A DNA stretch of 64,000 nucleotides from Candidatus Gastranaerophilales bacterium (lineage in GTDB: Bacteria; Cyanobacteriota; Vampirovibrionia; Gastranaerophilales; Gastranaerophilaceae). The translations under genes were made by a program, and so were the position numbers. The first letter of the stretch is position 1, and every line of letters begins with the position of its first letter. The notes under the pieces are model-generated. The model was given only the letters and a program-made list of their open reading frames with translations. It was not told the DNA's origin and made no database searches. The stretch covers positions 446 through 64,445 of the forward strand of contig CANPYW010000008.1 in assembly GCA_947588745.1 (NCBI GenBank), in the 5' to 3' direction. Positions 25,577 to 41,653 of this stretch are shown here, one piece after another.

Positions 25577-26473
25577 TTATCTCTTTCTTAACTTCAACAA
25601 ATTTTGTATGAAAATATTTTCTATTTTTTCCTCGTTATTAACATGCAATAATGCATTCAAATCTTCTTTAAACTTAGATATATCTTCATATTTTTTTAAT
25701 ATTCCGTCTATTGCAATAGAAATATCTCCAGTTTCTTCGGAAACTACAATACAGGCAGAATCCGATATTTCACTTGCACCTATTGCTGCTCTATGTCTTG
25801 TTCCGTATCTCCAGCTCAATTTAGGGTCTTCCGTTAACGGCAACAAAACACCGGCAGCAAGAATTTTATCCCCATGAATTACCATAGCTCCGTCGTGCAA
25901 AGGTGTATTAGGGAAAAATATCGTTAATATTAACTCCGTTGATATATCCGCATTAATAGTTGTTCCAACCTCATTATAAAAAGAGGAATCCTCATCTTTT
26001 TGAAGAACTATTAACGCTCCTCTTTTAACTCTGCTGCAATATTTTACAGCTTCCGTTATTTCTTTTACAACATTAGTCTTATTTTCTGTATTTTCTCTTT
26101 TAAAACTAAAGAAATTTTTCGCAAAAAAGTTCGTTTGTCCCAAATGAACCAATAATTTACGTAATTCTGGCTGAAACACAATTACTAATGATAACAGAAT
26201 ACCGGTTAATAAATACTGTGCTATCTGACCCAACACCCTGAATTCAAGTGCAATAAGAACCCCGGATACAATCCACGCCGTAATTATAAACAGCAAAATA
26301 CCTCTAACTAATTTTTCAGCCTGAGTATTTTTTATAAACCTTATGTAAAAATAACAAACAATTAATATTACAATAAGAACCTGTGCAAAATCTTTCATGG
26401 TAAATGTTGCAAAGTTCATTATCGCATCTTTTGCAAAAAAATTTTCATATAAATTCAATATTGCATCAATCAT
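25577..26473 (-). CDS. cdaA: Diadenylate cyclase CdaA (DisA_N/DAC domain, membrane-anchored)
   Basis: 298 aa. Three N-terminal TM helices, then GALIVLQ, PLHDGAMVI and YGTRHRAAIGASE. Confidence 0.88.
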   Translation of the reverse strand: MIDAILNLYENFFAKDAIMNFATFTMKDFAQVLIVILIVCYFYIRFIKNTQAEKLVRGILLFIITAWIVSGVLIALEFRVLGQIAQYLLTGILLSLVIVFQPELRKLLVHLGQTNFFAKNFFSFKRENTENKTNVVKEITEAVKYCSRVKRGALIVLQKDEDSSFYNEVGTTINADISTELILTIFFPNTPLHDGAMVIHGDKILAAGVLLPLTEDPKLSWRYGTRHRAAIGASEISDSACIVVSEETGDISIAIDGILKKYEDISKFKEDLNALLHVNNEEKIENIFIQNLLKLRKR

Positions 26474-27806
26474 CTGCTGTTTTGTTCAATCTAGCGGGTA
26501 CTACATCTGATTCACATAACTGTTCATAAGTTTGTCTATTTATTATAATATCAGATTTTCCATTATTTACAAGTAGTGCTGAAGGTCTTAACACTCTGTT
26601 ATAATTACTCGACATAGAATACCCGTATGCACCTGTCGTATAAAAACACAAGATATCACCTTCATAAATTTCAGGTAATTCTATATCTTTAGCCAAAATA
26701 TCACCAGATTCACAATGTTTACCGGCAATTGTTACAATCTCATTGTTTCTTCCGTTTGCATTATTGGCTATTTCGACCGTATATTCAGCTTGATACAAAC
26801 TAGGTCTTGCATTATCAGACATTCCTCCGTCAACGGCTCTGTATTTTCTGCCATTCGGCACTTGCTTTGAACTTCCTGCAGTATATATTGTAACCCCCGC
26901 AGTTCCGACTATACTTCTTCCAGGTTCAATATACAAAACAGGTTCTTCAAGTTCATATTTTTTGGTATGTTCTTCTACGGATTTTATTATCACTTCCGCT
27001 ATTTCATAAATAGAAATCGGTTTATCATCTTTTGTATATTTAATTCCGAGCCCGCCGCCTATATTTGCCTCTTTTAAAGTAATACCGAATTTATCTTTAA
27101 TACGTTTTATTTCCTTTAAAATTACACCAATTTCATCATAATAGACCTGCTTTTCAAATATTTGTGAACCTATATGAGCATGAAGCCCCGCAAGTTCAAG
27201 ATTACTGTATTCATCTTTTAAAAGTTCCAAAACTTCATCAGTCTGTGATAAATCGAAACCGAATTTAGAATCTAAATGTCCTGTTTGTATATACTCATGC
27301 GTGTGACATTCAATTCCGGGAGTTATTCTCAACAATATTTTTACTTTTTTATTATGAGATTTAGCACAGTTATTCAAAAGAGCCAGTTCAAAAAAATTAT
27401 CGACGGAAAATCTTTCTATACCGCATTCAATAGCATAATTTATCTCATCGTAAGATTTATTATTTCCGTTAAATAATGTTTTTGACATATCAAAACCGGA
27501 TGATTTTGCCGTATATATTTCACCTCCGGAGCATAAATCAAGCCCAAAATTTTCCTGCTGCATGATTTTGCAAATTGCCTTAGTCATAAATGCCTTTGCA
27601 GCAAACATCATATTCATTTTCGGATAATTTTTAAAGGCTTTTTTATAGTCATTTAATACTGAACGTATTGTTGCTTCATCATAAATATACAGCGGAGTAC
27701 CGTATTTATCGGCAAGCTCAGTTAAATCACATCCGCCTATTTCAATATTACCTTTTTCATTTATTTTCGTCGTTACAGGCTTTATACTCTGATTTGCAGT
27801 TTTCAT
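26466..27806 (-). CDS. lysA: Diaminopimelate decarboxylase
   Basis: 446 aa. TPLYIYDE, FAAKAF (PLP-Lys), HAHIGSQ, IGGGLGI, EPGRSIVG, CESGD and GAYGYSMSSNYN. The stop overlaps the cdaA start by 8 nt. Confidence 0.92.
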   Translation of the reverse strand: MKTANQSIKPVTTKINEKGNIEIGGCDLTELADKYGTPLYIYDEATIRSVLNDYKKAFKNYPKMNMMFAAKAFMTKAICKIMQQENFGLDLCSGGEIYTAKSSGFDMSKTLFNGNNKSYDEINYAIECGIERFSVDNFFELALLNNCAKSHNKKVKILLRITPGIECHTHEYIQTGHLDSKFGFDLSQTDEVLELLKDEYSNLELAGLHAHIGSQIFEKQVYYDEIGVILKEIKRIKDKFGITLKEANIGGGLGIKYTKDDKPISIYEIAEVIIKSVEEHTKKYELEEPVLYIEPGRSIVGTAGVTIYTAGSSKQVPNGRKYRAVDGGMSDNARPSLYQAEYTVEIANNANGRNNEIVTIAGKHCESGDILAKDIELPEIYEGDILCFYTTGAYGYSMSSNYNRVLRPSALLVNNGKSDIIINRQTYEQLCESDVVPARLNKTADD

Positions 27807-27852: not shown

Positions 27853-28128
27853 TTATAAAATAGCACGTCCATCATACATATATTTTGTACGTTCATACTC
27901 AGATTCTGCGTAATCTTTGTATTCTTTTTCTTTTTCAAATTGAGTTGACTGTTCTCTTGGTTCAATAAATGGCTGACTTTTATCTTTTCTTTTCCAATTT
28001 ATTTTAAACCCGTCCAAAAGTCCGTATTCAGTTTCTGTTTTATATGTTCCGATGTTAACGGCAAAACAAGGTGCAGTATACATAAACATTAATATTGATA
28101 ATATCAGTAATGAAATATACTTTTTCAT
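27853..28128 (-). CDS. Small secreted protein (91 aa), function unknown
   Basis: Signal peptide MKKYISLLILSILMFMYTAPCFA|VN. SD GGAGG upstream. Charged Lys/Glu/Tyr-rich mature part. Confidence 0.45.
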   Translation of the reverse strand: MKKYISLLILSILMFMYTAPCFAVNIGTYKTETEYGLLDGFKINWKRKDKSQPFIEPREQSTQFEKEKEYKDYAESEYERTKYMYDGRAIL

Positions 28129-28190: not shown

Positions 28191-31100
28191 TTATTTAAAA
28201 GCAAGAACATTGTTTTTGTATGCCGTTTGTTTTATATCATCAAACTTTTGAGAAATATATAATTGAGTATCTTCATACTTTTGTCTGAATTCTTCACGTT
28301 CTTTCGACACCTCGGAGTCATTCGGAACATCAATCGTATATAAAAGCATCATCCTATCGGATAACATTTGTGATAATTTATCAATATAATCTATACCAAC
28401 ATTAATATTTTCTTCCAAAATTGCCTGCAAGATATCATCATTTACAGCATTAAAATATGTCAAAATCATTGATGGAGCTATATTATAATGAGTATCTTCA
28501 AATTGTATGGAATTAAGATAATCAATATATTGTTTTGCAATATTATTATTCTTCAATGCAAATTTTCGTTTCATATATTTTCCTAATTGCTCTGTTATTT
28601 CGGGGAATGACTTATATTTTATTTTGCTTGAGTTTATATATTTAGTAATTTCATCATTAACTTTTTTAAACTCTTTAAGATTTAATTTTATATTTTTACA
28701 TTTTTCATCAACAAAATCTTTTGATTGATTAATATCAAATGTACTAATAAGAGCTTCCAATGCTCCTTGCGAGAGTCCTGACTGTTGCAGAAACAAATTT
28801 AAAGTCTTATTATCATCATTAGAATTTTTTAACTGTTCAACAAGATAAACTAAACCGACAGTATCAGACATTGGAAGTGTTCTTCCGTCACTTAATGTTA
28901 CGTGGAACATTTCAAGCATATCCTTTAGCTTTGAGCCTATTGACTCATGCTGATTTTGAACAAGTTTATATTGAACTCTTGTCTGTAATGCGACTTGAAG
29001 TGCTTCTTGCAAATATGTTTTTCTTACCTGATAATCATCTTTTTCAATATCACCATTCTGAACATCTTTTACACATTCAACAAGTAACTTTACTGGATTT
29101 TTTACAATATGCTTATCCGTTATATTTTCACTTATTTCATTTTCAAGCTGTTTTATAACTTTTTCATCTGCATCTTTTTTATATAAAACAACTAATTTAT
29201 TGAGCTTATTATATACATCATTTCTGTATTTTTCTTCAACATTAGTATTTACAAGCAATTTTATTTTATAACGGATTTGATTAAGTGTATCTTTATTAAC
29301 CTGTATAAATCTTTCTTTAGTAAACGAACTCTTTTCCCAATCAGAAACTATTTTTCTCATAGCTTTAATATCTTTTGATAATTCAAAGCAAGTAGTGTTT
29401 TCATCCTCATTTTGAAGTTTATGCATTATTGCGTTCACTGCTTTAATGAGTCCTTTAAATTCATCATCAGCTTCACCTATACAATCAAGTAAAACCTGTA
29501 ATGATTGTTTCATTTGCTCGATTTCTTCGGGATTCTCATCTTTTAAAAGTTTATTCTTATTTTGATTTATATCTTTCATAAGTTCGGTATTGGAAGTTTT
29601 ACGTTCAAAATCTTCATAATTTTCAAACATATTTATATAATAATTACCGCCTTTTATATTTGAAACGTCTTCTTTTAATGATTCAAACACAGAGAAAACA
29701 ACATCTTCAATTTTTTCATCTTTTAGAACCACAGGATTGGGGAATGCCTGTCTAACTTGATATTTTTGGAACGCTTCAGCCTTAAACGCCTTAATATATT
29801 TTTGAACATCCAAATCCGAAAGTCTGATTAAAAGTGTTCTGAAAAGTTCATCAGGGGTTTCGTTTTCATCATCATCTTTTGAAAGATTAAGTTCCGAATA
29901 TATTATGCCGGATGTTATAACACTTGATAATTCTCTTATAACATCCATATTTCCTTCTTTATATTTCAAAATATAATCATAAGCAGGCTTTATGTGTATT
30001 CCTATTTCTTCATCACTTAATAAATCAAACAATTTATCAACGGTATCATCATCTGCTTCTTGAAGTCCCTGAATTACTTTTAGCATTTCTTCATCTGAAG
30101 CCGGGTTAAAATACTTGTCTATAATTGACAAAAATTCATCTCTGAGCGGAGAATTATCAATCAAGGGACTATCTAAAGAACTAATCCTGATATTATTGTC
30201 AAATACTTCTTTTATAATTTTCTGAGCCCGGGGAATAAAATATCGTGCCGCTTTTTCATCATCCAAATAATCGCAAGCACCTTCAGCTATTTTATTCAAG
30301 TAGAAATTTTCCATTGAAGATATAGAACCGTCGACTTCAAACACACCTTCTTCATCATAAATAATATATTTTATGAGTTGCTCTTTATCTTCTTTAGGTA
30401 TTTGAATACTTAAATCCTTTTCTAATTGATTAAATAGATTTTCAAATTTCGGTCTTGCAGCTTCTTCAATAACCGCAATATTATCGTCAGATTTACCTAA
30501 TATAGTCAAAAGTACATTAATATGTTCGTCTTGAATTTCTTTATATCTTTTATCCAAATCATCCCTTGTAAGTGCAGAAAGGACATTATCAGCCCAAGCG
30601 GGATTATCCGTTGACATATATAATGCAAACTTATCCATGATAAATTTCAACGAATCATTTTCATCAAGTTTATCGTAATCTTCTTTTGTTTTAATTTCTC
30701 TATCAAGCCTTTTATAGATTTCATCCTCGATTGCTGAAGCTGTTTCATCTATACCGACCAATAAATCCAAATTTAATTTTGAACCAGATTTTAATTTTTC
30801 TTCCAAAGTTTCATAAACACGCTCCGCTCCCTGCATTGTGCATATATTATTAAACATTTTGTATAATTTTTGATATGCATCAACGGGTATTCCGGGCAAT
30901 ACCACATCGGTAAATAAACCAAAACTTTCTGTTTCATCAGGTACATCCTGTTTTGAAACGGGATTTTCTTTATGTAACCCTACTGCACCTGCTATATCTT
31001 TCAAAGGAAGCCCTATACGATAAGCATCATCGATTATAAACCCGTCTTTCCAACCGTATCCGCTTCCGTAATCAGTATGTTCAATGCCGTTTTCATCTTC

Positions 31101-34016
31101 CCAATAATAATCTTTTTCTATTCTTCCCCAGGAATTATCAGTCCATACAATACCTGAATTATCATCAGGAATATCAGTCCTATTTTCATTTAAGCCTGAT
31201 ACAAAGGGAATATATTGAGCGTGAAAAGCGTAATCGGAATCACTGACACTCATGGAAATAACTCCGCTGCCTTCACCTTTGGCTATTTGTTTAGCGGCTT
31301 CTTTTATATCATATACCATGTGATAGGGTCGGCCTGTCATTTGCTCGAATATTCTTATTTGTTCATTTGATGTTAACCCCGTAGAACCTTCTTCTCTAAC
31401 CCAAAACTGACCGTTTAACATTCCGATATCTGAATATTGCTTATCCAATTCTTCTTTTAAGCCTTTATTCATTGCCTGATATTCCAATGTGCAATATTTC
31501 TTCATTTGCGGAATACTTTTTTCTATTTTATTCAAAATCGCTATTTCTTCATCAGAAAAGACATACAACTTTTTATCTGCCTTTTCTCGTTCTTTTACAC
31601 TCTTTATTTGAGAATTCTTCCGCTTTTGACTCTGGATATAATCAAATTTTGCCTGTAGAATATTCAATTGATTTCTTGTTAATATATTTCCGGCTTTTTC
31701 AAGTTTTTCGAGTATTAAAATTCTTGGTGAAGGAATTTGCCATTTTTCAACAATTTCTTCCTGCATAGAAGCGAGTTTTAAAAATTTATCTCTCTGATTG
31801 CTGACACCTTCCGCTATATTTTCTTCACCGCCGAATTGTTTCGAAAGGAAATCGTATGTTTCTTGTGTTATTCCGGTTTGAAGCGAATTTATGAATGTAT
31901 TTATGAATGATGAAGCGAAATGCATACTATCCTGATAGCCCAATAAACGAATTGCCTCGTTTCTTACCTGTTTAGAGGGTGAAAACTTAAGTTTAGTCTG
32001 CCACTTTTGTAATTCATCCAAAACCGACATTTTATCATTGCTAACATTAAGCATAGAAGCAATCGTTTGAATTTTATCGGATTTTCCGTCTTTTACAGTA
32101 TTATATACATTTTCATACATTTTTTCGGCTAATTGAGTAGTATCCATACCGTACAAGCTTTTTAATATATTATCAACCTGTGCAGGAATTTGTGTATCAA
32201 TTAAATACATATCTTTTATAACGGATTTAGAAAGATTTTCTGCTGTTTTATCCCCTTGAATATTATCAATAAAAAGATTTTGCATTACCTCAGACTTTGC
32301 ATTTCTTTCTATTGTTTGCAGATAATTTAGAATTTGAGTTTCTCTTTCTTTTAAGCCGGATATTTTCTCAAACCGGACTACACCATCTTGCATATTTACA
32401 TCGGCTTCCATGGCAAGCCTGTGTGCAGCTGCCAAATTATACAGCTTTTTATAATAATCAAACTTACCTCTGCCCGTATCAAACCTATGCAATTTTTTCA
32501 AATTTTTATCCAAAATTGTATACTCATCAACCATTCTATAAATTTTATCGGAATTTTGAGAGAGTACTTCGCTTTCTTTCGCCGTAATTTGAGGATTAAT
32601 ATCTTTTATATATTTTTCTAATCTTGACTGTTTCTGTGATACGGGAAGCTGCGACGGTACATTTACTTCATTATTATCTTTTGTACCCGAATAAAATTCG
32701 TAAAGCCCTTTTTCCAGTTTAATAATTTCCTTGTCAGATTTATTAGGGAATACTTCACATAACACATTTCTTAGCACAGCTGATATTTTTGACTGTGTTT
32801 CAATTGTATCTTTTTTTGCGTATATTATATTCAAATGAGCAGATTTAATCCTGTTTTGGGTCCTTTGTAAGGATAATAATGACTCTTTTTCCTTTATCAA
32901 TGCTTTTAACAAATCTTTTTCTTCATGAGTTTCAACATCTAAATTTTCATACCAGCTTGTATCATCATATATACCGTAACTATCTTTATCAAAAGCACTG
33001 TACCATTCGGTTTGAATAGTTCCATCCCCGCTTGCGTGTGCATTATGCATCCAGTTATGAGCCGAAGCATCAACTATTCTATAACCTTTTTCCAATGCGG
33101 TATCATAATCTATATCGGTTTTGGGGATACTAACCTTTTTCCCCGTACCCAATTCCGTTACGTCAAATACTTCCATAACAGGAGAATTTTTAAGTTCTTC
33201 CAATATTAAATTTACATAACCCGTTTTATCTTCATAAGCCATAGCTTTTCTGCATATTGATATGGCGGCACACATGCCCGAATATTTTTGGTCGATTTCC
33301 TTTGTTGTTAATATTTCACTTTCGGGAGATTTAACGAGCAAATCATTCAGCATTTCATCAAGAACCCGGGGTTTTTTATCCGAAAGCTGCGGATTAATTT
33401 TATAGTCATCACTTAATAAATACAAAAATTTTTCAAGACATTCCCGTTTTTGTTTAAAAGATATTTCGGATGAGGAGATAAAATAATCGAGATTTTTTCT
33501 TATATTTGCACTGATTATTAACGAATCAACATCTTCAACTGATGTTTCAGAACATATTTTATCGGTTAATTGACGTCTTAATTCTAATATTTGTTTTTGT
33601 TCATTGGTCAAAGGCTTCGAATTTAAAAATATCCGCTCGTATTCTTGTTCTAAATCTTCCGTTTTATCACACGAAGCATTCAAAGCTCTTTTAATAGTAT
33701 CCGCAAGTAATTTAGACCAATCAGTATTTTCTCTTTGGGTCGGTGTATTAGCATCTAAATCCAGAATTTTTTTAAATTCGGACTCTCCGTTCTGACCGTA
33801 AGTCAAATTATCAGCCAAATCAAGCAAAAACTCTATGCTTTTTCTGTCCGTTTGACTGCCGACATTATTTAATGCGGCGTATATATTTTGTTTATTGTTT
33901 TCAATTAAGGGTTTTTCACCGTTTTTTAACTGTGTAAGCGTATTTTTATCCGTTCTTAAACTTTTAAAGCTGAATTTATATCTGTTATCAGTATTAAGAT
34001 TGCTTTGTATTCTCAT
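28191..34016 (-). CDS. Giant orphan protein (~1,941 aa) with a split papain/PepC-like (C1-type) cysteine-peptidase signature and long helical regions
   Basis: ORF 34058 starts at TTG, and ATG 34016 has AAGGA 6 nt upstream (MRIQSNLNTDNRYKFSFKSL...). Uninterrupted 5.8-kb frame. DQKYSGMCAAIS (Cys at 33270-33272), YAFHAQYIPFV (His at 31221-31223) and VWTDNSWG...YGSGYGWKDGF (Asn at 31134-31136). No signal peptide or TM segment seen. Confidence 0.7.
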   Translation of the reverse strand: MRIQSNLNTDNRYKFSFKSLRTDKNTLTQLKNGEKPLIENNKQNIYAALNNVGSQTDRKSIEFLLDLADNLTYGQNGESEFKKILDLDANTPTQRENTDWSKLLADTIKRALNASCDKTEDLEQEYERIFLNSKPLTNEQKQILELRRQLTDKICSETSVEDVDSLIISANIRKNLDYFISSSEISFKQKRECLEKFLYLLSDDYKINPQLSDKKPRVLDEMLNDLLVKSPESEILTTKEIDQKYSGMCAAISICRKAMAYEDKTGYVNLILEELKNSPVMEVFDVTELGTGKKVSIPKTDIDYDTALEKGYRIVDASAHNWMHNAHASGDGTIQTEWYSAFDKDSYGIYDDTSWYENLDVETHEEKDLLKALIKEKESLLSLQRTQNRIKSAHLNIIYAKKDTIETQSKISAVLRNVLCEVFPNKSDKEIIKLEKGLYEFYSGTKDNNEVNVPSQLPVSQKQSRLEKYIKDINPQITAKESEVLSQNSDKIYRMVDEYTILDKNLKKLHRFDTGRGKFDYYKKLYNLAAAHRLAMEADVNMQDGVVRFEKISGLKERETQILNYLQTIERNAKSEVMQNLFIDNIQGDKTAENLSKSVIKDMYLIDTQIPAQVDNILKSLYGMDTTQLAEKMYENVYNTVKDGKSDKIQTIASMLNVSNDKMSVLDELQKWQTKLKFSPSKQVRNEAIRLLGYQDSMHFASSFINTFINSLQTGITQETYDFLSKQFGGEENIAEGVSNQRDKFLKLASMQEEIVEKWQIPSPRILILEKLEKAGNILTRNQLNILQAKFDYIQSQKRKNSQIKSVKEREKADKKLYVFSDEEIAILNKIEKSIPQMKKYCTLEYQAMNKGLKEELDKQYSDIGMLNGQFWVREEGSTGLTSNEQIRIFEQMTGRPYHMVYDIKEAAKQIAKGEGSGVISMSVSDSDYAFHAQYIPFVSGLNENRTDIPDDNSGIVWTDNSWGRIEKDYYWEDENGIEHTDYGSGYGWKDGFIIDDAYRIGLPLKDIAGAVGLHKENPVSKQDVPDETESFGLFTDVVLPGIPVDAYQKLYKMFNNICTMQGAERVYETLEEKLKSGSKLNLDLLVGIDETASAIEDEIYKRLDREIKTKEDYDKLDENDSLKFIMDKFALYMSTDNPAWADNVLSALTRDDLDKRYKEIQDEHINVLLTILGKSDDNIAVIEEAARPKFENLFNQLEKDLSIQIPKEDKEQLIKYIIYDEEGVFEVDGSISSMENFYLNKIAEGACDYLDDEKAARYFIPRAQKIIKEVFDNNIRISSLDSPLIDNSPLRDEFLSIIDKYFNPASDEEMLKVIQGLQEADDDTVDKLFDLLSDEEIGIHIKPAYDYILKYKEGNMDVIRELSSVITSGIIYSELNLSKDDDENETPDELFRTLLIRLSDLDVQKYIKAFKAEAFQKYQVRQAFPNPVVLKDEKIEDVVFSVFESLKEDVSNIKGGNYYINMFENYEDFERKTSNTELMKDINQNKNKLLKDENPEEIEQMKQSLQVLLDCIGEADDEFKGLIKAVNAIMHKLQNEDENTTCFELSKDIKAMRKIVSDWEKSSFTKERFIQVNKDTLNQIRYKIKLLVNTNVEEKYRNDVYNKLNKLVVLYKKDADEKVIKQLENEISENITDKHIVKNPVKLLVECVKDVQNGDIEKDDYQVRKTYLQEALQVALQTRVQYKLVQNQHESIGSKLKDMLEMFHVTLSDGRTLPMSDTVGLVYLVEQLKNSNDDNKTLNLFLQQSGLSQGALEALISTFDINQSKDFVDEKCKNIKLNLKEFKKVNDEITKYINSSKIKYKSFPEITEQLGKYMKRKFALKNNNIAKQYIDYLNSIQFEDTHYNIAPSMILTYFNAVNDDILQAILEENINVGIDYIDKLSQMLSDRMMLLYTIDVPNDSEVSKEREEFRQKYEDTQLYISQKFDDIKQTAYKNNVLAFK

Positions 34017-34176
34017 TATATATCCTTCTAATATCTCAAAGATATTAAAATCGGACAAGATAATTTTTGTTATGAAACAAATCTTTCAAGAACAAAATTT
34101 ACTTTAGTTAACATATTTAAAGAGATATCCTCACAAAAATACATTTATACAATCATCCGTAATACAATTATAAGTA

Positions 34177-36837
34177 ATGAGAAAAGTAAGACTTGTAATT
34201 TTAAAAGTGATACTTGCCGTAATAATTTTTATGGCGGTATTTTATGCTCTGTTTTTATATGCACTTCCTCCGGTTTTAAATTCATCAAAAGTAAGGTTTA
34301 AAGCGGAACGATTGTTAAAAGAAAAAACAAATCTTGATTTAATTACAAAACACTTATATTTTAGAACCCACCCCGACTTATCAATCAGTATTAATGCGGA
34401 TAAGATTTATTTGGAAAACAAGGATAAAAAACCGGTTTTTAAAACAGACAATATTTCGGCATATTTTAATCTGCCCGAGCTTAAATTCAAAAATATTTAT
34501 ACGGATTATGTATATCTTGATGAATTTGAATTAAAAAGCTTAATTAAAAGCAATCAAACTAAATCGCACAACAAAGTTTTTAATATTGATACATCATACA
34601 TTCCGAACATCATTATTAAAAATGCGGAAATTTGGATTGACAAAGAAAGCATTAACAGCATCTTTATCGTAATTGATGACTTTAACATTATTAAAGCAAA
34701 ACACATGAAAGTATATTGTACATTTAAAGCCGACATTATATCGGCTATGCTGAAAAATCTTATACACATAGGCGACGGCGGTTGTTTATATATCGAAAAC
34801 AATAATATTTATGCAAAAGACCTCAAAATTAAAGTAGGATATCCCGATATCAAAATAAACGGACTTATTTCTAACAAAAATAGGGAAAACGATTTTACGA
34901 TAAAAGGAGATAATCTTCCCGTTAATGATATCGAATCATCACTGCTTTACTTTTTAAAATTAAGAAAAAAAGGAAAACAGTTCCTTGAAAATTTCAAAGA
35001 TTTTAACGGAAATATAGATATAAATTTAAACGTTAAAAATTGGGGTTTTTACGGAATGTGTTTTGCGGATGATTTAGAGGCAAAATCCGTTTTGTTTGAT
35101 GTTCCAGTTAAGTTTAAAAAAGTATTTTTTAAATTTAATAACAGAGAAGTAACTTCTAAAGCAATAGGCACTCTTGGCGGCGAAAAAGTGTTTAATACCT
35201 TTAAAATGACTGATATGGCAACGGATTTACAGGAAGTAACGGGGCATATTAATTCGTTTATAACAAACAAACTTGCTTCCGAATATCTCGATAATTCATC
35301 CGTAACGGGAGGCATGGATGCTTCGGTGGATTACAGAGTTAAAGACCATAAAATTTATGTTGATTATATGTTAAACATAAAAAAAGGCTCGGCATTTATT
35401 TATAAAAAATCATTTATAGGTATAACGAATAAAGACAGAAGAATTTTGGTTAAAACATTAAAAGACAATGATGAATTATATATCAGGCACTATGATTATT
35501 CAACGATAGAAAACAACAAAGTAAAAAACATAGTTCTCGGCACCGGATTGTTTAAGAAAAAAGACAATCATTTCACACCCGAATATATAACCTGTGCCAC
35601 CAACGGATTTGTTCCCGTTACCATAGCGGGTTCGTTCGGACAGGTTATAGACGGCGGGGTTTTCAGCGGTGATATTAAATATATTTTTAAGAAAAATCTT
35701 GTAACGGGTAATTTTACGGTAAAAGATACCGCATATAAAAACTTTTATGTTAATACCGCAAAAATTTTAGCAGATGAGAACAAAATCCGCATTGAAGCAA
35801 ACGGTGATTTTAAAAATTCGCCTTATGAATGTACGTTTGATGCAAAAAACGATATTACCGACAAAATACACATATATAATATGTATCTTATGCTCGAAGA
35901 ATACATTATAAATCCCGCTTTAAGCAAAAAAACCAAAATCAGCAAAAAAGTCGTAAACAAAATAAAAAACAAAGCAAAAGAACTGGATATCACAATTGAT
36001 AAATGGACGGTTAAAATTAACAAAATTCAAAGAAACAAGTTTGAATTGAAAAATATTATGCTTACGGGAAGTTTAAAAAACAATGTTTTCAAATTTTTAA
36101 TGCCGCATACGGAATTTTCAGACGGAATTCTTTGTGCTAACGGGGTTTATAACATAAATAATCTTTCATCCGAAATAAACTTTTCGGCACATAAAATAAA
36201 TTCAAATAAAGCTGCGGATATATTCTTCAATTTAAAAGACCAAATCGAAGGTATTGCGGACGCTTCTTTAAACTTAAAATCAAACAACAATTTTAAAGAT
36301 ATACAAGGGCTTATAACTTTTAAAGTGGAACAGGGTTATCTGCCAAAATTAGGAAGCACCGAATTTATCATAAAAAAATCAAAAAAAATAAAAAGAGAAT
36401 TGAAATTTAAAATTTCGGACATAATTAACATCGATATTAAAAATATGAAAGCATTGGCTTCCGATATTAACGGCAGTCTTTATATAGATAACGCAGAAAT
36501 TAAAGATATAGAAATCACATCACGTCAAAAATATTTATCTTTGCTTATAGAGGGCGATTATAATGCCGACAGTTGCGAAGCCGATTTGAATTTATACGGT
36601 AAATACAGCAATAAAGCACAGAAAAAAATAAAAATATTATTCATTCCGTTATCCTGGATTGTCAATATAATATTTAAACCCGAACATACGTTTGATAAAT
36701 ATATAAATGAAATTAATCGCATTCCGTCCATCCAAGCACAACAAAACGATGAAAACACTTTCAGGGTTAAACTTAAAGGTAACCTGAATTCCGACAACAT
36801 TGACGTTGAATTAAAAAGAATTATCAAAAATCATTAA
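34177..36837 (+). CDS. AsmA-family protein (TamB/AsmA-like envelope protein), paralogue 1
   Basis: 886 aa. Single N-terminal TM anchor (VILAVIIFMAVFYALFLYAL), a long beta-rich body and an AsmA_2-like C-terminus (DINGSLYIDNAEIKDIEITSRQKYLSLLIEGDYN...ADLNLYGKY). Both termini are clearly paralogous to 38864..41653. Confidence 0.6.
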   Translation: MRKVRLVILKVILAVIIFMAVFYALFLYALPPVLNSSKVRFKAERLLKEKTNLDLITKHLYFRTHPDLSISINADKIYLENKDKKPVFKTDNISAYFNLPELKFKNIYTDYVYLDEFELKSLIKSNQTKSHNKVFNIDTSYIPNIIIKNAEIWIDKESINSIFIVIDDFNIIKAKHMKVYCTFKADIISAMLKNLIHIGDGGCLYIENNNIYAKDLKIKVGYPDIKINGLISNKNRENDFTIKGDNLPVNDIESSLLYFLKLRKKGKQFLENFKDFNGNIDINLNVKNWGFYGMCFADDLEAKSVLFDVPVKFKKVFFKFNNREVTSKAIGTLGGEKVFNTFKMTDMATDLQEVTGHINSFITNKLASEYLDNSSVTGGMDASVDYRVKDHKIYVDYMLNIKKGSAFIYKKSFIGITNKDRRILVKTLKDNDELYIRHYDYSTIENNKVKNIVLGTGLFKKKDNHFTPEYITCATNGFVPVTIAGSFGQVIDGGVFSGDIKYIFKKNLVTGNFTVKDTAYKNFYVNTAKILADENKIRIEANGDFKNSPYECTFDAKNDITDKIHIYNMYLMLEEYIINPALSKKTKISKKVVNKIKNKAKELDITIDKWTVKINKIQRNKFELKNIMLTGSLKNNVFKFLMPHTEFSDGILCANGVYNINNLSSEINFSAHKINSNKAADIFFNLKDQIEGIADASLNLKSNNNFKDIQGLITFKVEQGYLPKLGSTEFIIKKSKKIKRELKFKISDIINIDIKNMKALASDINGSLYIDNAEIKDIEITSRQKYLSLLIEGDYNADSCEADLNLYGKYSNKAQKKIKILFIPLSWIVNIIFKPEHTFDKYINEINRIPSIQAQQNDENTFRVKLKGNLNSDNIDVELKRIIKNH

Positions 36838-36924: not shown

Positions 36925-37938
36925 ATGAATGATAATTTAGGCTTTAATCCGGTTAGTATAAATAAGGTTTATCAGACGGAAGGAGTAAAGTTACCCCAAA
37001 AAGCCAAAACTGAGCCGGTAACAGATACGGTTGAAATTACAAAACAAAAAAGCGGCAAAAGTAAAAGAAATAAAATTTTGGCAGGATTAGCAATTGCCAC
37101 AACGGCACTTGTTATAGGTATATCGGTTTACAAAAAGAAAAAAGCATTAAACAGTATTCCTCCCGAATTAAAAGAACTGTTTAATTCTCTTAAAGAGAAA
37201 TCGGGAAAAGAATATATTGATGATGCATATTCGGGTCTTGTTAAACACATGGGGCTTGACGATATAGCACCGAAAAGCGTTAATTTAACCGACAATGCCG
37301 ATGGAATCTTTTCCATCACAGGAGGATATAATCCGCTTGAGAATACGATTGAATATTCGAAAGGTTTTTCAAAACGCCTTAATAAAGAACAGCAATTCAA
37401 CATGTTAAGTCATGAACTGACTCACTGCAAGCAATTCACACAAGTTATAAGGACCGAAGGACTCGGTGTTGAAGCACTTGCGGAAGGCATAGCGGGAAAT
37501 GCCACAAAAAAAGACGTGTTTGGGCAGGACAGAGTAAGCGTTCTTGCGGAAACTTTAGGGGAAGAAGGAGCAAAGGAAATATTAAAAGAGCAAAAAGAAA
37601 AATTAATAAAAGAAATTCTCCCGAAATTAAAAGAAGCTCACGAAAAAGCATTATCATTACCAAAATTTGCGGCCGATTCGCCGGAGGGTATACAGGCAAA
37701 AAAATACATTGAAGCATATAAAGACTATGAAGGACTCGGTTTATTGGGGTTCGGAAGCGATAAATACAGAAGTAATTTATTGGAAGAAGAAGCTTATAAA
37801 TACGGTTCGAAAATGGAAAAATTATTTAACACTTATACTTTAAACCAACCGTCAAAATTATATACACGTGCAAAAGATTCCATACAAAGATTAAAAGACT
37901 CGCTATCAAAAAAACATATCAGCCAAGCTGCAAACTAA
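36925..37938 (+). CDS. Membrane-anchored HExxH protein (putative Zn-metallopeptidase, DUF4157-like motif)
   Basis: 337 aa. SD GGGAGG. Polar N-terminus, a single TM (ILAGLAIATTALVIGISVY), then ...GGYNPLENTIEYSKGF...FNMLSHELTHCKQF (HELTH at 37411-37425) with downstream Glu-rich segments. Confidence 0.5.
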   Translation: MNDNLGFNPVSINKVYQTEGVKLPQKAKTEPVTDTVEITKQKSGKSKRNKILAGLAIATTALVIGISVYKKKKALNSIPPELKELFNSLKEKSGKEYIDDAYSGLVKHMGLDDIAPKSVNLTDNADGIFSITGGYNPLENTIEYSKGFSKRLNKEQQFNMLSHELTHCKQFTQVIRTEGLGVEALAEGIAGNATKKDVFGQDRVSVLAETLGEEGAKEILKEQKEKLIKEILPKLKEAHEKALSLPKFAADSPEGIQAKKYIEAYKDYEGLGLLGFGSDKYRSNLLEEEAYKYGSKMEKLFNTYTLNQPSKLYTRAKDSIQRLKDSLSKKHISQAAN

Positions 37939-37968: not shown

Positions 37969-38838
37969 TTATTTCTTCTTGTGTTTGAGGTTATTTCTCA
38001 AATCGATAAAAGGCCCGTTGTACGGATTTCGAACATATCTGTAGTAGTTTCTCGCATAAGTAAACGGATATTTCGGAAGCCAGCTGAATTTCAACAAAAT
38101 AGATACGGTTTCCGCACCTTGAGAAAACATTAACTGGTCAATTGTTTCTTCATGTGCCGGTGATATGGATGAAATTAACTTAACTAAATAATCGGTAAAA
38201 GTAATAACGGAATATCCGGACATTACCCCCGTATTAACAACCAAATCCGATATTCTGAACTTTGATGTATCATCAAGCTCCGTTAAATCTTTTGATAAAG
38301 AAAGTGTTTCTTTGGAAATATTTTCTATTTCAAACCATTCACCCATATATTGTAATCTCATCAGGTTTGGTTTAGGCATATATATATCTTCATATTCATT
38401 TTCAAGAATAATATTTCCCTTAAAGTCGGCTACACCGTATTTATAATTATCATAAGTTAAAAGCATTCCGCCGAAAAGCAATTCAATGGCATCATATACG
38501 GGAGGCAATATCGTTTCGCCCGTTTCGTCATACATTCCGTAATCACCGTAATTGCCTAATTTTGCGTATTTCCCCAGCACTCTTTCCGCATGCCTGTATT
38601 TTAGCGGCACAAGCACGTTACCGCACAAATCAACAATTCCGTATTTATTCTTTTTTTGAACGAGGTAAGATTTATCGCCCAAGCGGATTATTTTTGAATA
38701 AATCGGTTGTATTACGACATTTTGATTTTCATCTTTAACTCCAAACTTTTTATCCTCGGAAAAAACAGTATCTTGTGCAAAAGATGAATTTTGAAATATT
38801 AAAAATATAAAACAAACAATATATAAAAACTTTTTCAT
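37969..38838 (-). CDS. Secreted WG-repeat (KWG / WG_beta_rep) protein
   Basis: 289 aa. Signal peptide ...FQNSSFA|QD. Repeats KFGVKDENQNVVIQPIYSKI, KYGIVDLCGNVLVPLKYRH, YGMYDETGETILPPVYDAI and KYGVADFKGNIILENEYEDI. Confidence 0.7.
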   Translation of the reverse strand: MKKFLYIVCFIFLIFQNSSFAQDTVFSEDKKFGVKDENQNVVIQPIYSKIIRLGDKSYLVQKKNKYGIVDLCGNVLVPLKYRHAERVLGKYAKLGNYGDYGMYDETGETILPPVYDAIELLFGGMLLTYDNYKYGVADFKGNIILENEYEDIYMPKPNLMRLQYMGEWFEIENISKETLSLSKDLTELDDTSKFRISDLVVNTGVMSGYSVITFTDYLVKLISSISPAHEETIDQLMFSQGAETVSILLKFSWLPKYPFTYARNYYRYVRNPYNGPFIDLRNNLKHKKK

Positions 38839-38863: not shown

Positions 38864-41653
38864 ATGTTTAGATTAGTTGTTAAAATATTATTATGTGCTG
38901 TAATTATATCCATATTTGCAGTTTGTGCCGCAACAATCGGATATTTAAAAATATTACCAAAAGTTGTCGAAAACAATAAAGTAATTAATAAAGCCGAACA
39001 ACTTGCAAATAAATACACTGATTTAGATTTGGAGATAAAATCGCCCAAACTTGTAACAAGTTTATCACCCGTTATCGAATTTTCCGTCGGCACTTTAAAA
39101 ATGAGCAAGGATAATAATCTCCTTCTTGATTTGGAAAACATTGAAACTTCAATTTCATTTAAAGAAATTTTTCAAAAAAAGATTATTATAAATAAACTTG
39201 GTGCGGATAAAATTTATGCCGACATAAACAAAGTTATAAACGCTTTTTCAAAAGAAGATAATGAAGAACCGATAAAATCGGATTGGATAATTGACTTTTA
39301 CAATTCGATTTTATTCATAAACGACAGCCATATTATATATAAACCCGATAAAAATACAAAAATACGGCTTAAAGCTTCAGGTATCAAACTTGATAATACA
39401 ATAAGCGATAACAAACACCTTCATTTTAATTTGGATGCAAATATTTCGAATGCAACAAGCAATGTTGATATTGCATTTAATGACGAAAATAAGGTCATTG
39501 TGAATGATGACCATATATCAATAAAAGATTGTCCATTTATTATCAATAAATCAAAAATGTTTTTTGATGCAATAATCAATCAGGATAATACATTTAATGT
39601 TGAAGTATATGCGAATAAATTTTTTATTCCCGACGTTATAAAACTTTTACAAACAAATATTGTGCCCAACAACATTAATGACATACTTTTATACTTAAAA
39701 GACATAAAAGGTGATTTTGATTTCAGAGTAAAGATTACCGATAAATCCTTAACCGGAAACGTGAATATTAACAAATGTTCTTCTTTACTTGTACCGCTAG
39801 CGGATATGCCCGTTGCCATTTCCGGCGGAAATATTATAATCAAAGAAAAAGATATCGATTTAAAGAATTTTAAGGGTTATTACGCTAATAAAAAGAGCAA
39901 TGAAATTTCTTTTGACGGAAAAGTTAAAGACTATATGAAAACCGCCGAAACAAATATTGATATGAAAGCCCGACTCACAAGTGACTTTGTAGACAAATAT
40001 TTGTCAAAAACGGCAAAGTTAAAACTGGCATTAAAAGGAAGCTCAAATGCTTTAATTCTTATTCATACACTGGGAACCAACGTTGATGTATCTTTAATGG
40101 GTAAAATAGCCAAAGGATATGATATTCTTGCAGAAGGTGCATCGTTTAGCCCCATAAACTATGACAGAGCTTTAAGAGCGGATATTCACGTTAAAGGCGA
40201 TAATCTTAATATTGAAGAAATAAAATATTTTATCGGAAAAGAGCTTAATAAAGACTCTAAAGGGAAAGTTAAACCTATTTTAACATTGGACGGGAACATA
40301 AGAATTTCGGACGGCAAAATTTTGGATTTGGGCTTTGACGTAAAAAATCCGCTGCCGAGTGAATTTTTAAATATATTAATAAGTCAAAAATTATTCAGAG
40401 GCGGTAAATTTTCGGGTTATTTGAAAATGCTCAACGCAAAAGGCGACTATCCCAAAATAAAAGGTAATATTATTGCCGATAAAATAGGTATTCCGAGCCA
40501 AAGATTATTCCTTAATCATGGTGAATTTTCAACCGATAAAGAAGAACTTCACGTTAATGCGGACGGTAAATACAGAAGATGCCATTATACATTTAACGGA
40601 AATGTCTTAAACGAAATTAAATTTCCGATTGTTATAACATCAACAAATCTTACAATTGATGACGTAAATATAGAAAAAGTTATGAAATCACTTTCAAAAC
40701 CGCCAAAACCCGTTGAGAAAATAAGTAATGTTTATGTGGAAGAAGCAGCTTTGGAAGATAACGAAAGCGATGAAAGTGATGAAGAACCGTTTGAGTTTGA
40801 TTTTGATAATATCATTGTTCAAAATGCGGTTGTGAAAATATTAAAAGGCGAATATAAAGACATTAAATTTTCAAATGTTATCGCAAATATGTCATTAAAA
40901 GAAAGTATTTTCAAATTAAAATCGAACAGGTTTGAAATAGCCGACGGACACTCATCTGCCGATATTAACTGTGATTTAAAAAAACAGAAATACGATGTTA
41001 AATTGGGAATTAAAGATGTTAATTCGGATATCATGTCCACAACTATTTTAAATCTTCCCAAAGAAATTTCGGGCAAAGCAAGCGGATTAATTCATTTATA
41101 TACGGATGCTTCACTAAAACTTAACGGTAATATTAAATTCGCAATAAAAGACGGTACAATACAAAAAATCGGACTGGTCGAATATGTACTTAAATTTGCC
41201 GCACTTTTCAGAAATCCTTTTGCAATGATTAGTCCCTCCGTATTTGCGGATTTGGTTAATATCCCGGAAGGAAATTTTGATAAAATTACCGGTGATTTAA
41301 TAATGAAAGACAATGTAATACAGCTTATGAAAATAAAATCCTATTCACCTTATCTTAGTGCGTTTATAATCGGCAGCTATAACCTTGAAAATTGCGATGC
41401 CATTTTAAGAATTTATACTAAATTCACAAATAAAAAGAAAGGCTTTGCGGGATTTTTAAGATATATTTCACTAAGCAGCCTTGCAAACAGAATTCCTTTA
41501 AACAGCAGAAATGACAGCAACTATTATGAAGCCGAATTATCCCAGCTTCCGGATATTGAAGCCGACGAGAAAGACTGTCAGGTATTCTTAACCAAAGTTG
41601 ACGGAGATATCGAACATAACAACTTTATATCTTCTCTAAAGAAAATAAAATAA
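38864..41653 (+). CDS. AsmA-family protein, paralogue 2
   Basis: 929 aa. SD GGAG. N-terminal TM anchor (ILLCAVIISIFAVCAATIGYL). N-terminus LPKVVENNKVINKAEQLANKYTDLDLEIK parallels LPPVLNSSKVRFKAERLLKEKTNLDLITK of paralogue 1. C-terminus KITGDLIMKDNVIQLMKIKSYSPYLSAFIIGSYNLENCDAILRIYTKF. Confidence 0.6.
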   Translation: MFRLVVKILLCAVIISIFAVCAATIGYLKILPKVVENNKVINKAEQLANKYTDLDLEIKSPKLVTSLSPVIEFSVGTLKMSKDNNLLLDLENIETSISFKEIFQKKIIINKLGADKIYADINKVINAFSKEDNEEPIKSDWIIDFYNSILFINDSHIIYKPDKNTKIRLKASGIKLDNTISDNKHLHFNLDANISNATSNVDIAFNDENKVIVNDDHISIKDCPFIINKSKMFFDAIINQDNTFNVEVYANKFFIPDVIKLLQTNIVPNNINDILLYLKDIKGDFDFRVKITDKSLTGNVNINKCSSLLVPLADMPVAISGGNIIIKEKDIDLKNFKGYYANKKSNEISFDGKVKDYMKTAETNIDMKARLTSDFVDKYLSKTAKLKLALKGSSNALILIHTLGTNVDVSLMGKIAKGYDILAEGASFSPINYDRALRADIHVKGDNLNIEEIKYFIGKELNKDSKGKVKPILTLDGNIRISDGKILDLGFDVKNPLPSEFLNILISQKLFRGGKFSGYLKMLNAKGDYPKIKGNIIADKIGIPSQRLFLNHGEFSTDKEELHVNADGKYRRCHYTFNGNVLNEIKFPIVITSTNLTIDDVNIEKVMKSLSKPPKPVEKISNVYVEEAALEDNESDESDEEPFEFDFDNIIVQNAVVKILKGEYKDIKFSNVIANMSLKESIFKLKSNRFEIADGHSSADINCDLKKQKYDVKLGIKDVNSDIMSTTILNLPKEISGKASGLIHLYTDASLKLNGNIKFAIKDGTIQKIGLVEYVLKFAALFRNPFAMISPSVFADLVNIPEGNFDKITGDLIMKDNVIQLMKIKSYSPYLSAFIIGSYNLENCDAILRIYTKFTNKKKGFAGFLRYISLSSLANRIPLNSRNDSNYYEAELSQLPDIEADEKDCQVFLTKVDGDIEHNNFISSLKKIK

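What the first reader, a model, noticed from the sequence alone, without database searches (positions are those of the whole stretch)
28191..34058. Giant (~1,940 aa) orphan protein with a split papain/PepC-type Q-C-H-N catalytic signature
This is by far the largest ORF in the window, one uninterrupted 5.8-kb frame. I see no signal peptide or TM helix, and most of it is Lys/Glu/Asp/Asn-rich and looks helical. Two short blocks stand out. DQKYSGMCAAIS has its Cys codon at 33270-33272. The Gln sits six residues upstream, as in papain Q19/C25, and the block resembles the NQK-SG-C block of aminopeptidase C (bleomycin hydrolase). About 680 residues later comes YAFHAQYIPFV (His codon 31221-31223). Another 29 residues on is VWTDNSWGRIEKDYYWED...YGSGYGWKDGF (Asn codon 31134-31136), which mirrors the H...NSWG...G-GY block of C1 peptidases. 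So a C1-like active site appears to be interrupted by a ~600-aa helical insertion and followed by ~930 aa of unassignable sequence. I do not know of a characterised peptidase with this layout. The gene sits directly upstream of the lysA-cdaA operon, on the same strand, and is divergent from an AsmA-family gene.
Basis: partly seen in the sequence, partly recalled or inferred. Interest (0 to 1): 0.8.

Follow-up and report, generated by a model that had tools for sequence, protein, structure and literature searches.

The report
Giant split papain-like cysteine peptidase family
This 1,941-residue protein is not an orphan: it belongs to an unannotated family, confined to the gut bacterial order Gastranaerophilales, that very probably carries a papain-type cysteine-protease active site cut in two by a ~500-600-residue helical insert, with substrate and role unknown.

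Summary
There is one uninterrupted frame at 28191-34058 (-), with the true start at ATG 34016 (1,941 aa).

"Orphan" is wrong. I found 238 close homologues and 171 clusters at 50% identity, essentially all from Candidatus Gastranaerophilales metagenome-assembled genomes.

In 191 family members (down to 20% identity) only 10 of 1,941 columns are invariant. Five of them are Q243, C249, H932, N961 and W963, which match the papain Q19/C25/H159/N175/W177 set.

In the AlphaFold models, C249 caps a helix, H932 opens a strand and N961 closes the neighbouring strand. Of the top 50 PDB matches to the His/Asn lobe alone, 44-45 are papain-fold (clan CA) cysteine peptidases from at least five families. None is individually significant (best E 0.036). 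Coevolution links the Cys helix and pre-Cys loop to the His/Asn lobe.

Sequence profiles (Pfam, NCBIfam, PDB, hhalign against C1A) find nothing, so membership of family C1 or PepC is not supported.

lysA-cdaA adjacency is not conserved. A 91-aa secreted protein immediately downstream is conserved.

Verdict: a new, architecturally unusual papain-fold family of unknown function.

The parts
28191..34016 (-). Coding sequence of the giant protein (1,941 aa plus TAA stop). The mechanical ORF extends to TTG 34058, but ATG 34016 is the start.
   Evidence: M1 aligns with the start of the homologues.
33540..34016 (-). Residues 1-159: a disordered N-terminal ~20 residues with a conserved F17/R21/D23 motif, followed by a helical domain (helices 20-157) that holds invariant W100.
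   Evidence: AF2 model pLDDT and secondary structure; conservation.
32937..33539 (-). N-lobe, residues 160-360, the best-conserved block. It holds Q243 (33288-33290) and C249 (33270-33272), and C249 is the first residue before helix 250-262. Two small beta-hairpins and invariant D352 and M323 follow.
31434..32936 (-). All-helical insert, residues 361-861. It begins with a 62-residue helix and is basic (pI 8.8), unlike the acidic rest of the protein. It separates the Cys-bearing part from the His/Asn-bearing part.
   Evidence: C-to-H spacing is 461-777 residues in 189 homologues.
30879..31433 (-). C-lobe, residues 862-1046. It contains the conserved loop GQFWVREEGSxGL (G880 invariant), helix 883-894, H932 (31221-31223) at the start of a strand, D960-N961-S-W963-G (N961 = 31134-31136) at the end of the next strand, and the GYGWKDGF block.
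28194..30878 (-). C-terminal ~895 residues. They have conserved patches (for example around 1411-1440 and 1681-1710), no detectable domain, and were not modelled beyond residue 1150.
27853..28128 (-). A 91-aa gene 62 bp downstream on the same strand, with a GGAGG ribosome-binding site. It has a Sec-type signal peptide (cleavage after CFA) and a 68-aa mature protein. It is a conserved partner of the giant gene.

Best explanation
The gene encodes a lineage-specific (Gastranaerophilales) 224-kDa protein with no export signal. Its core is a papain-fold (clan CA-type) thiol hydrolase, most probably a peptidase or isopeptidase.

Proposed mechanism:
- C249, at the N-terminus of helix 250-262, is the nucleophile.
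- H932, at the start of a beta-strand, is the general base.
- N961, at the end of the adjacent strand and helped by D960, orients the His.
- Q243, six residues before the Cys, forms the oxyanion hole.
- W963 shields the His-Asn pair.

The catalytic domain is split. The N-lobe supplies the equivalent of papain's Gln loop and Cys helix. A ~500-residue basic helical module is inserted. The C-lobe then supplies roughly the last three-quarters of the fold: a Gly-rich loop, a helix, and the beta-barrel with His and Asn. About 160 N-terminal and 895 C-terminal helical residues form a scaffold, presumably for substrate selection or regulation.

Shown: invariance of the residues, their secondary-structure context, the papain-fold character of the C-lobe, and coevolutionary contact between the lobes. 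Inferred: catalytic activity, peptide-bond specificity, intracellular location, and the role of the insert.
For: (1) Conservation. Q243, C249, H932, N961 and W963 are five of only ten invariant columns in 191 homologues down to 20% identity. They are also invariant in 100/100 closer homologues. Conservation peaks at residues 181-360 and 871-990, exactly the two lobes.

(2) Model of residues 1-1150 (AF2, pLDDT 86, pTM 0.77). C249 immediately precedes helix 250-262. H932 opens strand 932-936. N961 follows strand 956-959.

(3) Fold search. An AF2 model of the C-lobe alone (pLDDT 81) was searched with Foldseek against the PDB. 44-45 of the top 50 hits are clan CA cysteine peptidases of at least five families: staphopain, calpain-5 and calpain-2 cores, a Josephin-type DUB, the StbD C39 peptidase, and cathepsins S/V/K/H/L. 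Cathepsin alignments span ~165 of ~217 residues. 8SSM is a C39 peptidase with Q177/C183/H258/D275, the same Gln-x5-Cys spacing as here.

(4) Coevolution. In a mean-field DCA on 190 sequences, six inter-lobe pairs exceed every one of ~44,000 control pairs (control maximum 1.18): T353-T879 2.05, I254-V919 1.88, E240-R965 1.47, S246-Y987 1.33, V228-I966 1.29 and E234-D997 1.29. These tie the Cys helix and pre-Cys loop to the strand that pairs with the His strand (920-936) and to residues right after N-S-W-G. The His and Asn strands also pair (934-959).

(5) Register. The top hhalign alignments, though not significant, place Q243/C249 on papain Q19/C25 and DNSWG/GWKDGF on NSWG/GENGY.

(6) Fixed split. 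The split is present in every member, with C-to-H spacing of 461-777 residues.
Against: - No statistically significant similarity to any peptidase. Pfam, NCBIfam and PDB HMMER searches were negative with the protein, the family profile and a lobes-only profile.
- hhalign against C1A gave probabilities of 0.2-2.9%.
- The best Foldseek E-value is 0.036, with TM-scores of 0.3-0.4 and high rmsd.
- Foldseek with the 1,150-residue model gave only helical noise.
- The Cys-His distance could not be measured.
- pLDDT around 241-250 is only 68.
- The N-lobe could not be fold-searched on its own.
- DCA used an effective sequence number of only about 140-150.
- No biochemical data exist.
Confidence: 0.6

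Rival explanations
1. The fold and the Cys-His-Asn triad are as proposed, but the chemistry is not peptide-bond hydrolysis. The protein would be a transglutaminase, deamidase, acyl- or amidotransferase, or an amidase acting on a non-protein substrate, as seen in other papain-fold superfamily members (transglutaminases, NAT, NlpC/P60/CHAP, Cif/CNF-type deamidases).
For: The evidence for the fold does not distinguish between chemistries. BFVD hits include endolysin and 'lysozyme' entries whose matched domain I did not check; they might carry CHAP-type amidase domains. There is no detectable sequence membership of any peptidase family.
Against: The invariant Gln six residues before the Cys and the Asn-Ser-Trp after the His strand form the peptidase-type signature of C1, C2, C10, C47 and C39 (from knowledge of those families). 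Transglutaminases and NlpC/P60 enzymes normally use Asp or His as the third residue and lack this Gln. The best PDB matches are all peptidases or isopeptidases. The lack of a signal peptide argues against a cell-wall amidase.
Confidence: 0.2
2. The papain resemblance is convergent or coincidental. On this view the invariant Cys, His, Asn and Trp serve another purpose, such as a metal or cofactor site or a structural core of a novel scaffold protein, and the protein is not a thiol hydrolase.
For: No individually significant profile or fold match was found. TM-scores are 0.3-0.4. Most of the protein is a helical scaffold without enzymatic hallmarks.
Against: Five canonical positions are simultaneously invariant out of ten invariant columns in total. 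They occur in the canonical order, with canonical spacing and on the canonical secondary-structure elements. 44-45 of 50 top fold matches fall in one fold class spread over at least five sequence-unrelated families. A Cys/His metal site would normally need more conserved ligands, and no other Cys or His is conserved.
Confidence: 0.1
3. The protein is an exported toxin or effector, secreted by a non-Sec route, and the downstream 91-aa secreted protein is its extracytoplasmic inhibitor, chaperone or partner. This would be analogous to protease-inhibitor gene pairs such as staphopain/staphostatin or StbD-CT/StbI.
For: The small gene is adjacent and conserved in ~41 of ~58 loci and has the same taxonomic range. 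The giant protein is acidic (pI 5.0), Cys-poor, and has a conserved disordered N-terminus. The top fold hits come from protease-inhibitor systems.
Against: The gene has a stable length, was seen at one place on each related contig examined (copy number was not checked), and was found in 69 representative genomes with no mobile or polymorphic-toxin context. It gave no PADLOC or PHROG match. It has no RTX or other secretion-related repeats or domains. In the known pairs the inhibitor is cytoplasmic and the protease carries the signal, the reverse of what is seen here. The more distant family members lack the small gene.
Confidence: 0.1

Closest known systems
Papain family C1 (C1A cathepsins/papain; C1B aminopeptidase C / bleomycin hydrolase)
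   Same: The order and local motifs of the catalytic set are the same: Q-x5-C at a helix N-terminus; a helix-strand-His-Ala strand; N-S-W-G followed by a G-x-x-G-aromatic block; and a Gly-rich loop before a helix (compare papain G65-G66 and helix 67-78, from my knowledge of papain). Cathepsins S/V/K/H/L make up most of the C-lobe fold hits, with ~165 aligned columns.
   Different: There is no Pfam PF00112 or PF03051 match and no significant hhalign score. Cys and His are 683 residues apart, against ~134 in papain and ~290 in PepC. There is no prodomain, signal peptide or disulfide pattern. The protein is nine times larger. The N-lobe has extra beta-hairpins.
Staphopain (C47) and the staphopain-staphostatin operon
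   Same: It gives the best single Foldseek match (1pxv_A, E 0.036, probability 0.84; also 8oig and 1y4h). It is a minimal papain-fold enzyme with a small conserved gene immediately downstream.
   Different: Staphopains are ~174-residue secreted enzymes with cytoplasmic inhibitors. Here the large protein has no signal peptide and the small partner does. There is no sequence similarity.
Calpain protease core (C2)
   Same: The active site is built from two subdomains, with Cys on one and His/Asn on the other, embedded in a large multidomain regulatory protein. It shares the Q-x5-C, H-A and N-x-W-G motifs. The calpain-5 and calpain-2 cores are among the hits.
   Different: The two calpain subdomains are contiguous (about 157 residues from Cys to His). 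There is no Pfam C2 match, and no EF-hand or C2-like domains.
C39 bacteriocin-processing-type peptidases (e.g. StbD-CT, PDB 8SSM)
   Same: It shares the Gln-x5-Cys spacing and the C-(G/A)-A-A motif after the nucleophile. 8SSM is the only hit with a fair probability in the whole-model search, and it is found again with the C-lobe alone.
   Different: C39 domains are ~140 contiguous residues with Asp as the third residue, and they cleave after Gly-Gly. There is no Pfam C39 match.
USP-type deubiquitinases (C19) with domain insertions
   Same: They set a precedent for a papain-fold catalytic domain whose Cys box and His box are separated by inserted domains of hundreds of residues (from my knowledge of the family).
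   Different: They are eukaryotic, have a different finger-palm-thumb elaboration and different motifs, and there is no detectable similarity here.

Membership tests
Clan CA / papain-like fold | Nucleophilic Cys at the N-terminus of an alpha-helix | tested here: met
   C249 immediately precedes helix 250-262 in the AF2 model. It is invariant in 189/189 sequences.
Clan CA / papain-like fold | Catalytic residues in the sequence order Gln, Cys, His, Asn/Asp, with Gln ~6 residues before Cys | tested here: met
   Q243, C249, H932 and N961 occur in that order and all are invariant.
Clan CA / papain-like fold | His at the start of a beta-strand, with Asn/Asp on the neighbouring antiparallel strand | tested here: met
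   Strands 932-936 and 956-959 in two independent models. DCA pair 934-959.
Clan CA / papain-like fold | Significant structural similarity to solved clan CA structures | tested here: inconclusive
   With the C-lobe alone, 44-45 of the top 50 PDB hits are clan CA enzymes, but the best E is 0.036 and TM-scores are 0.3-0.4. The whole model gives noise.
Clan CA / papain-like fold | Cys S-gamma and His N-delta within ion-pair distance in one cleft | not testable with these tools
   No coordinates are returned. Indirect support comes from inter-lobe coevolution of the Cys helix and pre-Cys loop with the His/Asn lobe, above all controls.
Peptidase family C1 (Pfam Peptidase_C1 PF00112; C1B Peptidase_C1_2 PF03051) | Match to the family HMM or profile | tested here: not met
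   No hit even at E<=10 for the whole protein or for 39 lobes-only constructs. hhalign against a C1A alignment gave probabilities of 0.2-2.9%. PepC as a single sequence gave a spurious alignment.
Calpain C2, C39, C47, C10 (Pfam models) | Match to the family HMM | tested here: not met
   No such families were reported in the Pfam scans at E<=10. PDB sequence and profile searches found no peptidase.
Protease / cognate small-inhibitor operon (staphopain-staphostatin type) | Small gene conserved immediately downstream of the protease gene | tested here: met
   A 91-aa gene lies 21-85 bp downstream in ~41 of ~58 loci.
Protease / cognate small-inhibitor operon (staphopain-staphostatin type) | Inhibitor located in the compartment it protects (cytoplasmic, no signal peptide) and binding the protease | tested here: not met
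   The small protein has a canonical Sec signal peptide in all orthologues. Binding was not tested.
Anti-phage defence or phage protein families | Match to PADLOC or PHROG models | tested here: not met

The most novel reading that the evidence does not exclude
The giant protein and the co-conserved 68-residue secreted protein together form a Gastranaerophilales-specific system. In it, a calpain- or separase-like regulated thiol protease, whose two catalytic halves are held or gated by a ~500-residue basic helical module, carries out a lineage-defining function, for example regulated processing linked to envelope or export events. That would make it a new clan CA family with a new regulatory principle, not just another protease.
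Probability: 0.15. Interest if true: 0.7.

Novelty: new variant of a known kind. Interest (0 to 1): 0.55.

Why it matters
Gastranaerophilales are the non-photosynthetic, gut-dwelling relatives of cyanobacteria, known here only from metagenome-assembled genomes, so their biology rests on annotation. This is a ~224-kDa protein found in at least 69 species-level genomes. It has no Pfam or NCBIfam model and no relative of solved structure.

Recognising a probable papain-type catalytic centre gives the first testable handle on it: C249A and H932A mutants, and thiol-directed probes.

For protease biology it would add a new clan CA family in which the Cys-bearing and His/Asn-bearing parts are always separated by 461-777 residues. 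That is an extreme case of domain insertion, and it could show how the two halves of the papain fold can be gated.

It also identifies a conserved two-gene module (the giant protein plus a small secreted protein) that annotation has missed.

Tried and rejected
- HMMER against Pfam, NCBIfam, PADLOC, PHROGs and PDB sequences with the whole protein, with the 25-sequence family profile and with a lobes-only chimeric profile. Only designed helical bundles and noise came back.
The motifs align in the canonical register but nothing is significant.
- Foldseek with the 1,150-residue model. It was swamped by long-helix matches.
- A chimeric N-lobe-linker-C-lobe construct for AlphaFold.
- Foldseek against BFVD. 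The results were weak and mixed.
- An exhaustive profile search of 1.84 billion representatives for relatives with contiguous lobes. None of the 150 listed hits was one (the 21 weakest of the 171 were not shown); the listed hits were the same giant family or its fragments.
- Synteny as a clue to function. The neighbours differ between clades and lysA-cdaA is not conserved.
- H320 as an alternative catalytic His within the N-lobe. It is rejected: only 61% conserved and located in a helix.
- S878/T879 or helix 883-894 as an alternative nucleophile site in the C-lobe. They are rejected because those positions are variable (sequences).
- Promoter and terminator scans. They were uninformative in this AT-rich DNA.
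- Literature searches. They found no description of this family.
Full report
OBSERVATION

The frame 28191..34058 (-) is uninterrupted and is the largest ORF in the window: 1,955 codons from the first TTG, against 929 for the next largest. The biological start is ATG 34016. A GAAGGA ribosome-binding site lies 7-8 nt upstream, and all homologues align from this Met. This gives 1,941 aa, 224 kDa and pI 5.0.

I verified the codons directly: Q243 at 33288-33290, C249 at 33270-33272, H932 at 31221-31223 and N961 at 31134-31136. No 19-residue window exceeds a Kyte-Doolittle mean of 0.9, so there is no TM helix or signal peptide.

NOT AN ORPHAN

A word-indexed search found 238 homologues. Nearly all are 1,880-1,970 aa and aligned over 98-100% of the query, at 66% down to 28% identity. 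The few that carry a name are Candidatus Gastranaerophilales.

An exhaustive HMMER profile search (residues 160-1046) of 1.84 billion cluster representatives found 171 clusters, 159 of them at E<=1e-10. All 150 listed were the same giant family (up to 2,478 aa) or contig-end fragments of it. None of the listed hits was a shorter relative with contiguous lobes or a relative from another family.

A scan of one genome per GTDB species returned 69 loci. Where the records carry an informative name it is almost always Gastranaerophilales, Gastranaerophilaceae, Avigastranaerophilus, 'Vampirovibrio sp.' or 'Cyanobacteria bacterium', from gut and rumen metagenomes. The rest are titled only 'bacterium' or 'uncultured bacterium', or carry titles ('uncultured Muribaculaceae', one 'Gammaproteobacteria') that I take to be mislabels.

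CONSERVATION

In 100 close homologues, Q243, G247, C249, H932, D960, N961, W963 and G964 are invariant. I then aligned 191 sequences of at least 1,500 aa, including members only 20-25% identical. The counts are:
- Q243 188/188
- C249 189/189
- H932 191/191
- N961 191/191
- W963 191/191
- D960 189/191

Only ten of 1,941 columns are at least 99.5% invariant: W100, Q243, C249, M323, D352, G880, H932, N961, W963 and Y983. No other Cys exceeds 66% conservation and no other His exceeds 77%. Five of the ten invariant positions are therefore the equivalents of papain Q19, C25, H159, N175 and W177.

Column conservation peaks at residues 181-360 and 871-990, which are the two blocks that carry these residues. 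The Cys-to-His distance is 461-777 residues (median 683) in all 189 sequences where both could be read. The split is ancestral to the family.

STRUCTURE

An AlphaFold2 model of residues 1-1150, built with 40 homologues, is confident (mean pLDDT 86, pTM 0.77). Its features are:
- C249 directly precedes helix 250-262.
- H932 opens strand 932-936.
- N961 follows strand 956-959.
- Residues 361-868 are entirely helical and start with a 62-residue helix.

These are the secondary-structure positions of the papain-fold triad. pLDDT is lower (68) for residues 241-250.

Foldseek with this whole model gave only long-helix noise. The one hit with a fair probability (0.75, E 0.62) was 8ssm_A. According to bioRxiv 10.64898/2026.05.07.723447, that chain is the C39 cysteine-peptidase domain of StbD-CT, with Q177/C183/H258/D275.

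Its PDB search gave no hit below E 0.036. However, 44-45 of the 50 best matches are clan CA cysteine peptidases from at least five families without mutual sequence similarity:
- staphopain A/B/C
- the calpain-5 and calpain-2 protease cores
- a Parachlamydia Josephin-type deubiquitinase
- StbD C39
- cathepsins S, V, K, H and L

The cathepsin alignments span ~165 of ~217 residues. This fits the C-lobe corresponding to roughly papain residues 55-212. That mapping is my inference. It also rests on the local pattern G877-x-x-G880 followed by helix 883-894, which resembles papain G65-G66 and helix 67-78. I treat the enrichment as good evidence for a papain-type fold of this lobe, and the individual E-values as insufficient. 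The BFVD search was weak and mixed.

DO THE HALVES MEET?

No coordinates are available, so I ran a mean-field direct-coupling analysis on 190 sequences (effective number ~140-150). It recovers hairpins seen in the models: 282-294, 337-354, 920-936 and 934-959, the last pairing the His and Asn strands. The method is therefore working.

With a C-terminal segment (1620-1769) as control, the highest of ~44,000 control couplings is 1.18. Six N-lobe/C-lobe pairs exceed it:
- T353-T879: 2.05
- I254-V919: 1.88
- E240-R965: 1.47
- S246-Y987: 1.33
- V228-I966: 1.29
- E234-D997: 1.29

I254 lies on the Cys helix, five residues after C249. V919 lies in the strand that pairs with the His strand. S246 lies between Q243 and C249. 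R965 and I966 directly follow N961-S-W-G. A258 and I254 also couple with F890 (1.1). This is what is expected if the Cys helix and the Gln loop pack against the His/Asn sheet. It is indirect support, not proof.

SEQUENCE-PROFILE TESTS ARE NEGATIVE

- Pfam and NCBIfam gave nothing for the whole protein.
- PDB sequences gave nothing with the protein, with the family profile or with a lobes-only profile.
- Pfam scans of 39 lobes-only constructs at E<=10 gave no peptidase family shared by members.

The top hhalign alignments do put Q243/C249 on Q19/C25 (pairwise E 0.015), and DNSWG...GWKDGF on NSWG...GENGY.

Membership of family C1 or C1B is therefore not supported. The protein is best described as a new family with a clan CA-type fold and active site.

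CONTEXT

Neighbours differ between distant members. lysA (26466-27806) and cdaA (25577-26473) are correctly identified, but they follow the giant gene only in this window and in other assemblies that carry an identical copy of the 91-aa gene (L073 shows both; L074 is cut off after one unannotated downstream gene), so presumably the same or a near-identical organism. They follow it in none of the 69 related genomes. The divergent 886-aa gene has no AsmA or any other Pfam match and is shared only with the closest relative.

- It lies 62 bp downstream on the same strand and has a GGAGG ribosome-binding site.
- It is found 21-85 bp after the giant gene in ~41 of ~58 loci that include the 3' end.
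- It is 62-82% identical in all but the two most distant of those loci (45-49%), which makes it better conserved than the giant protein.
- It has a Sec-type signal peptide.
- Its mature sequence is almost invariant: NxGTYxTExEYGLLDGFKxNWKRKxK...FIEPRE...EY..T...Y.G.
- Its 182 homologues are all 76-112 aa, have no Pfam domain, and carry names only from the same clade.

The more distant giants lack it. Its relation to the giant protein is unexplained.

INTERPRETATION

The most likely reading (confidence about 0.6) is an active papain-fold thiol hydrolase, probably a peptidase or isopeptidase, built into a giant helical scaffold. C249 and H932 would form the ion pair, N961 would orient the His, Q243 would form the oxyanion hole and W963 would act as a shield. 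The basic helical insert (pI 8.8, against 4.3-4.8 for the lobes) and the ~1,050 flanking helical residues presumably select substrates or gate the site. The location is probably cytoplasmic.

The rivals are:
- the same fold with non-peptidase chemistry (about 0.2);
- a coincidental motif in a non-enzymatic scaffold (about 0.1);
- a non-classically exported effector paired with the small secreted protein (about 0.1).

Defence-system or phage origin is unlikely. The gene was seen at one place on each related contig examined and has a stable length; copy number per genome was not checked.

NOVELTY AND SCORE

The catalytic principle is known. The family, its size, the obligatory 461-777-residue interruption of the catalytic domain and the conserved small partner are not described in Pfam, NCBIfam, the PDB or the searchable literature. 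I rate it a new variant of a known kind, with interest 0.55.

Noticed in passing
window 27853-28128 (-): A 91-aa gene with a Sec signal peptide and a near-invariant 68-aa mature sequence lies 62 bp downstream of the giant gene. It is conserved in that position in ~41 of ~58 related loci and has 182 homologues, all clade-restricted and without Pfam domains. It forms a co-conserved two-gene module of unknown meaning.
   Followed up: partly
window 31434-32936 (-), residues 361-861: The helical insert between the two catalytic lobes is basic (pI 8.8), while every other segment of the protein is acidic (pI 4.3-5.7). This might point to binding of nucleic acid, membrane or an acidic partner.
   Followed up: no
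window 33957-34016 (-), residues 1-20: The N-terminal ~20 residues are predicted to be disordered (pLDDT 25-42) yet carry conserved F17, R21 and D23. They could be a degron, a docking motif or a non-classical export signal.
   Followed up: no
window 34177-36837 (+) and 38864-41653 (+): Two further large ORFs (886 and 929 aa) have no Pfam match at all. The 886-aa gene is shared only with the closest relative (L004).
   Followed up: partly
window 36925-37938 (+) and 37969-38838 (-): A 337-aa protein has weak matches to the metallopeptidase-like families BSP and DUF6782 (E ~1e-4, below the Pfam cut-offs). A 289-aa WG-repeat protein lies next to it.
   Followed up: no
L073 2-5239 (another assembly carrying an identical copy of the 91-aa gene, so presumably the same or a near-identical organism): In a 3x-coverage assembly the giant gene is called as two pieces (915 aa, cut off at the contig end, plus 800 aa). 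This is presumably a sequencing frameshift and shows how such giant genes get fragmented in MAG annotation. L004, the closest relative, has a GC-rich, junk-like sequence directly after the gene, which suggests a chimeric contig end.
   Followed up: no
loci L004, L014-L016, L038, L044, L052, L063, L064, L069: Several public MAG records that carry this Gastranaerophilales-specific gene are titled 'uncultured Muribaculaceae bacterium' or 'uncultured Gammaproteobacteria bacterium'. These are probably taxonomic mislabels in the deposited records.
   Followed up: no
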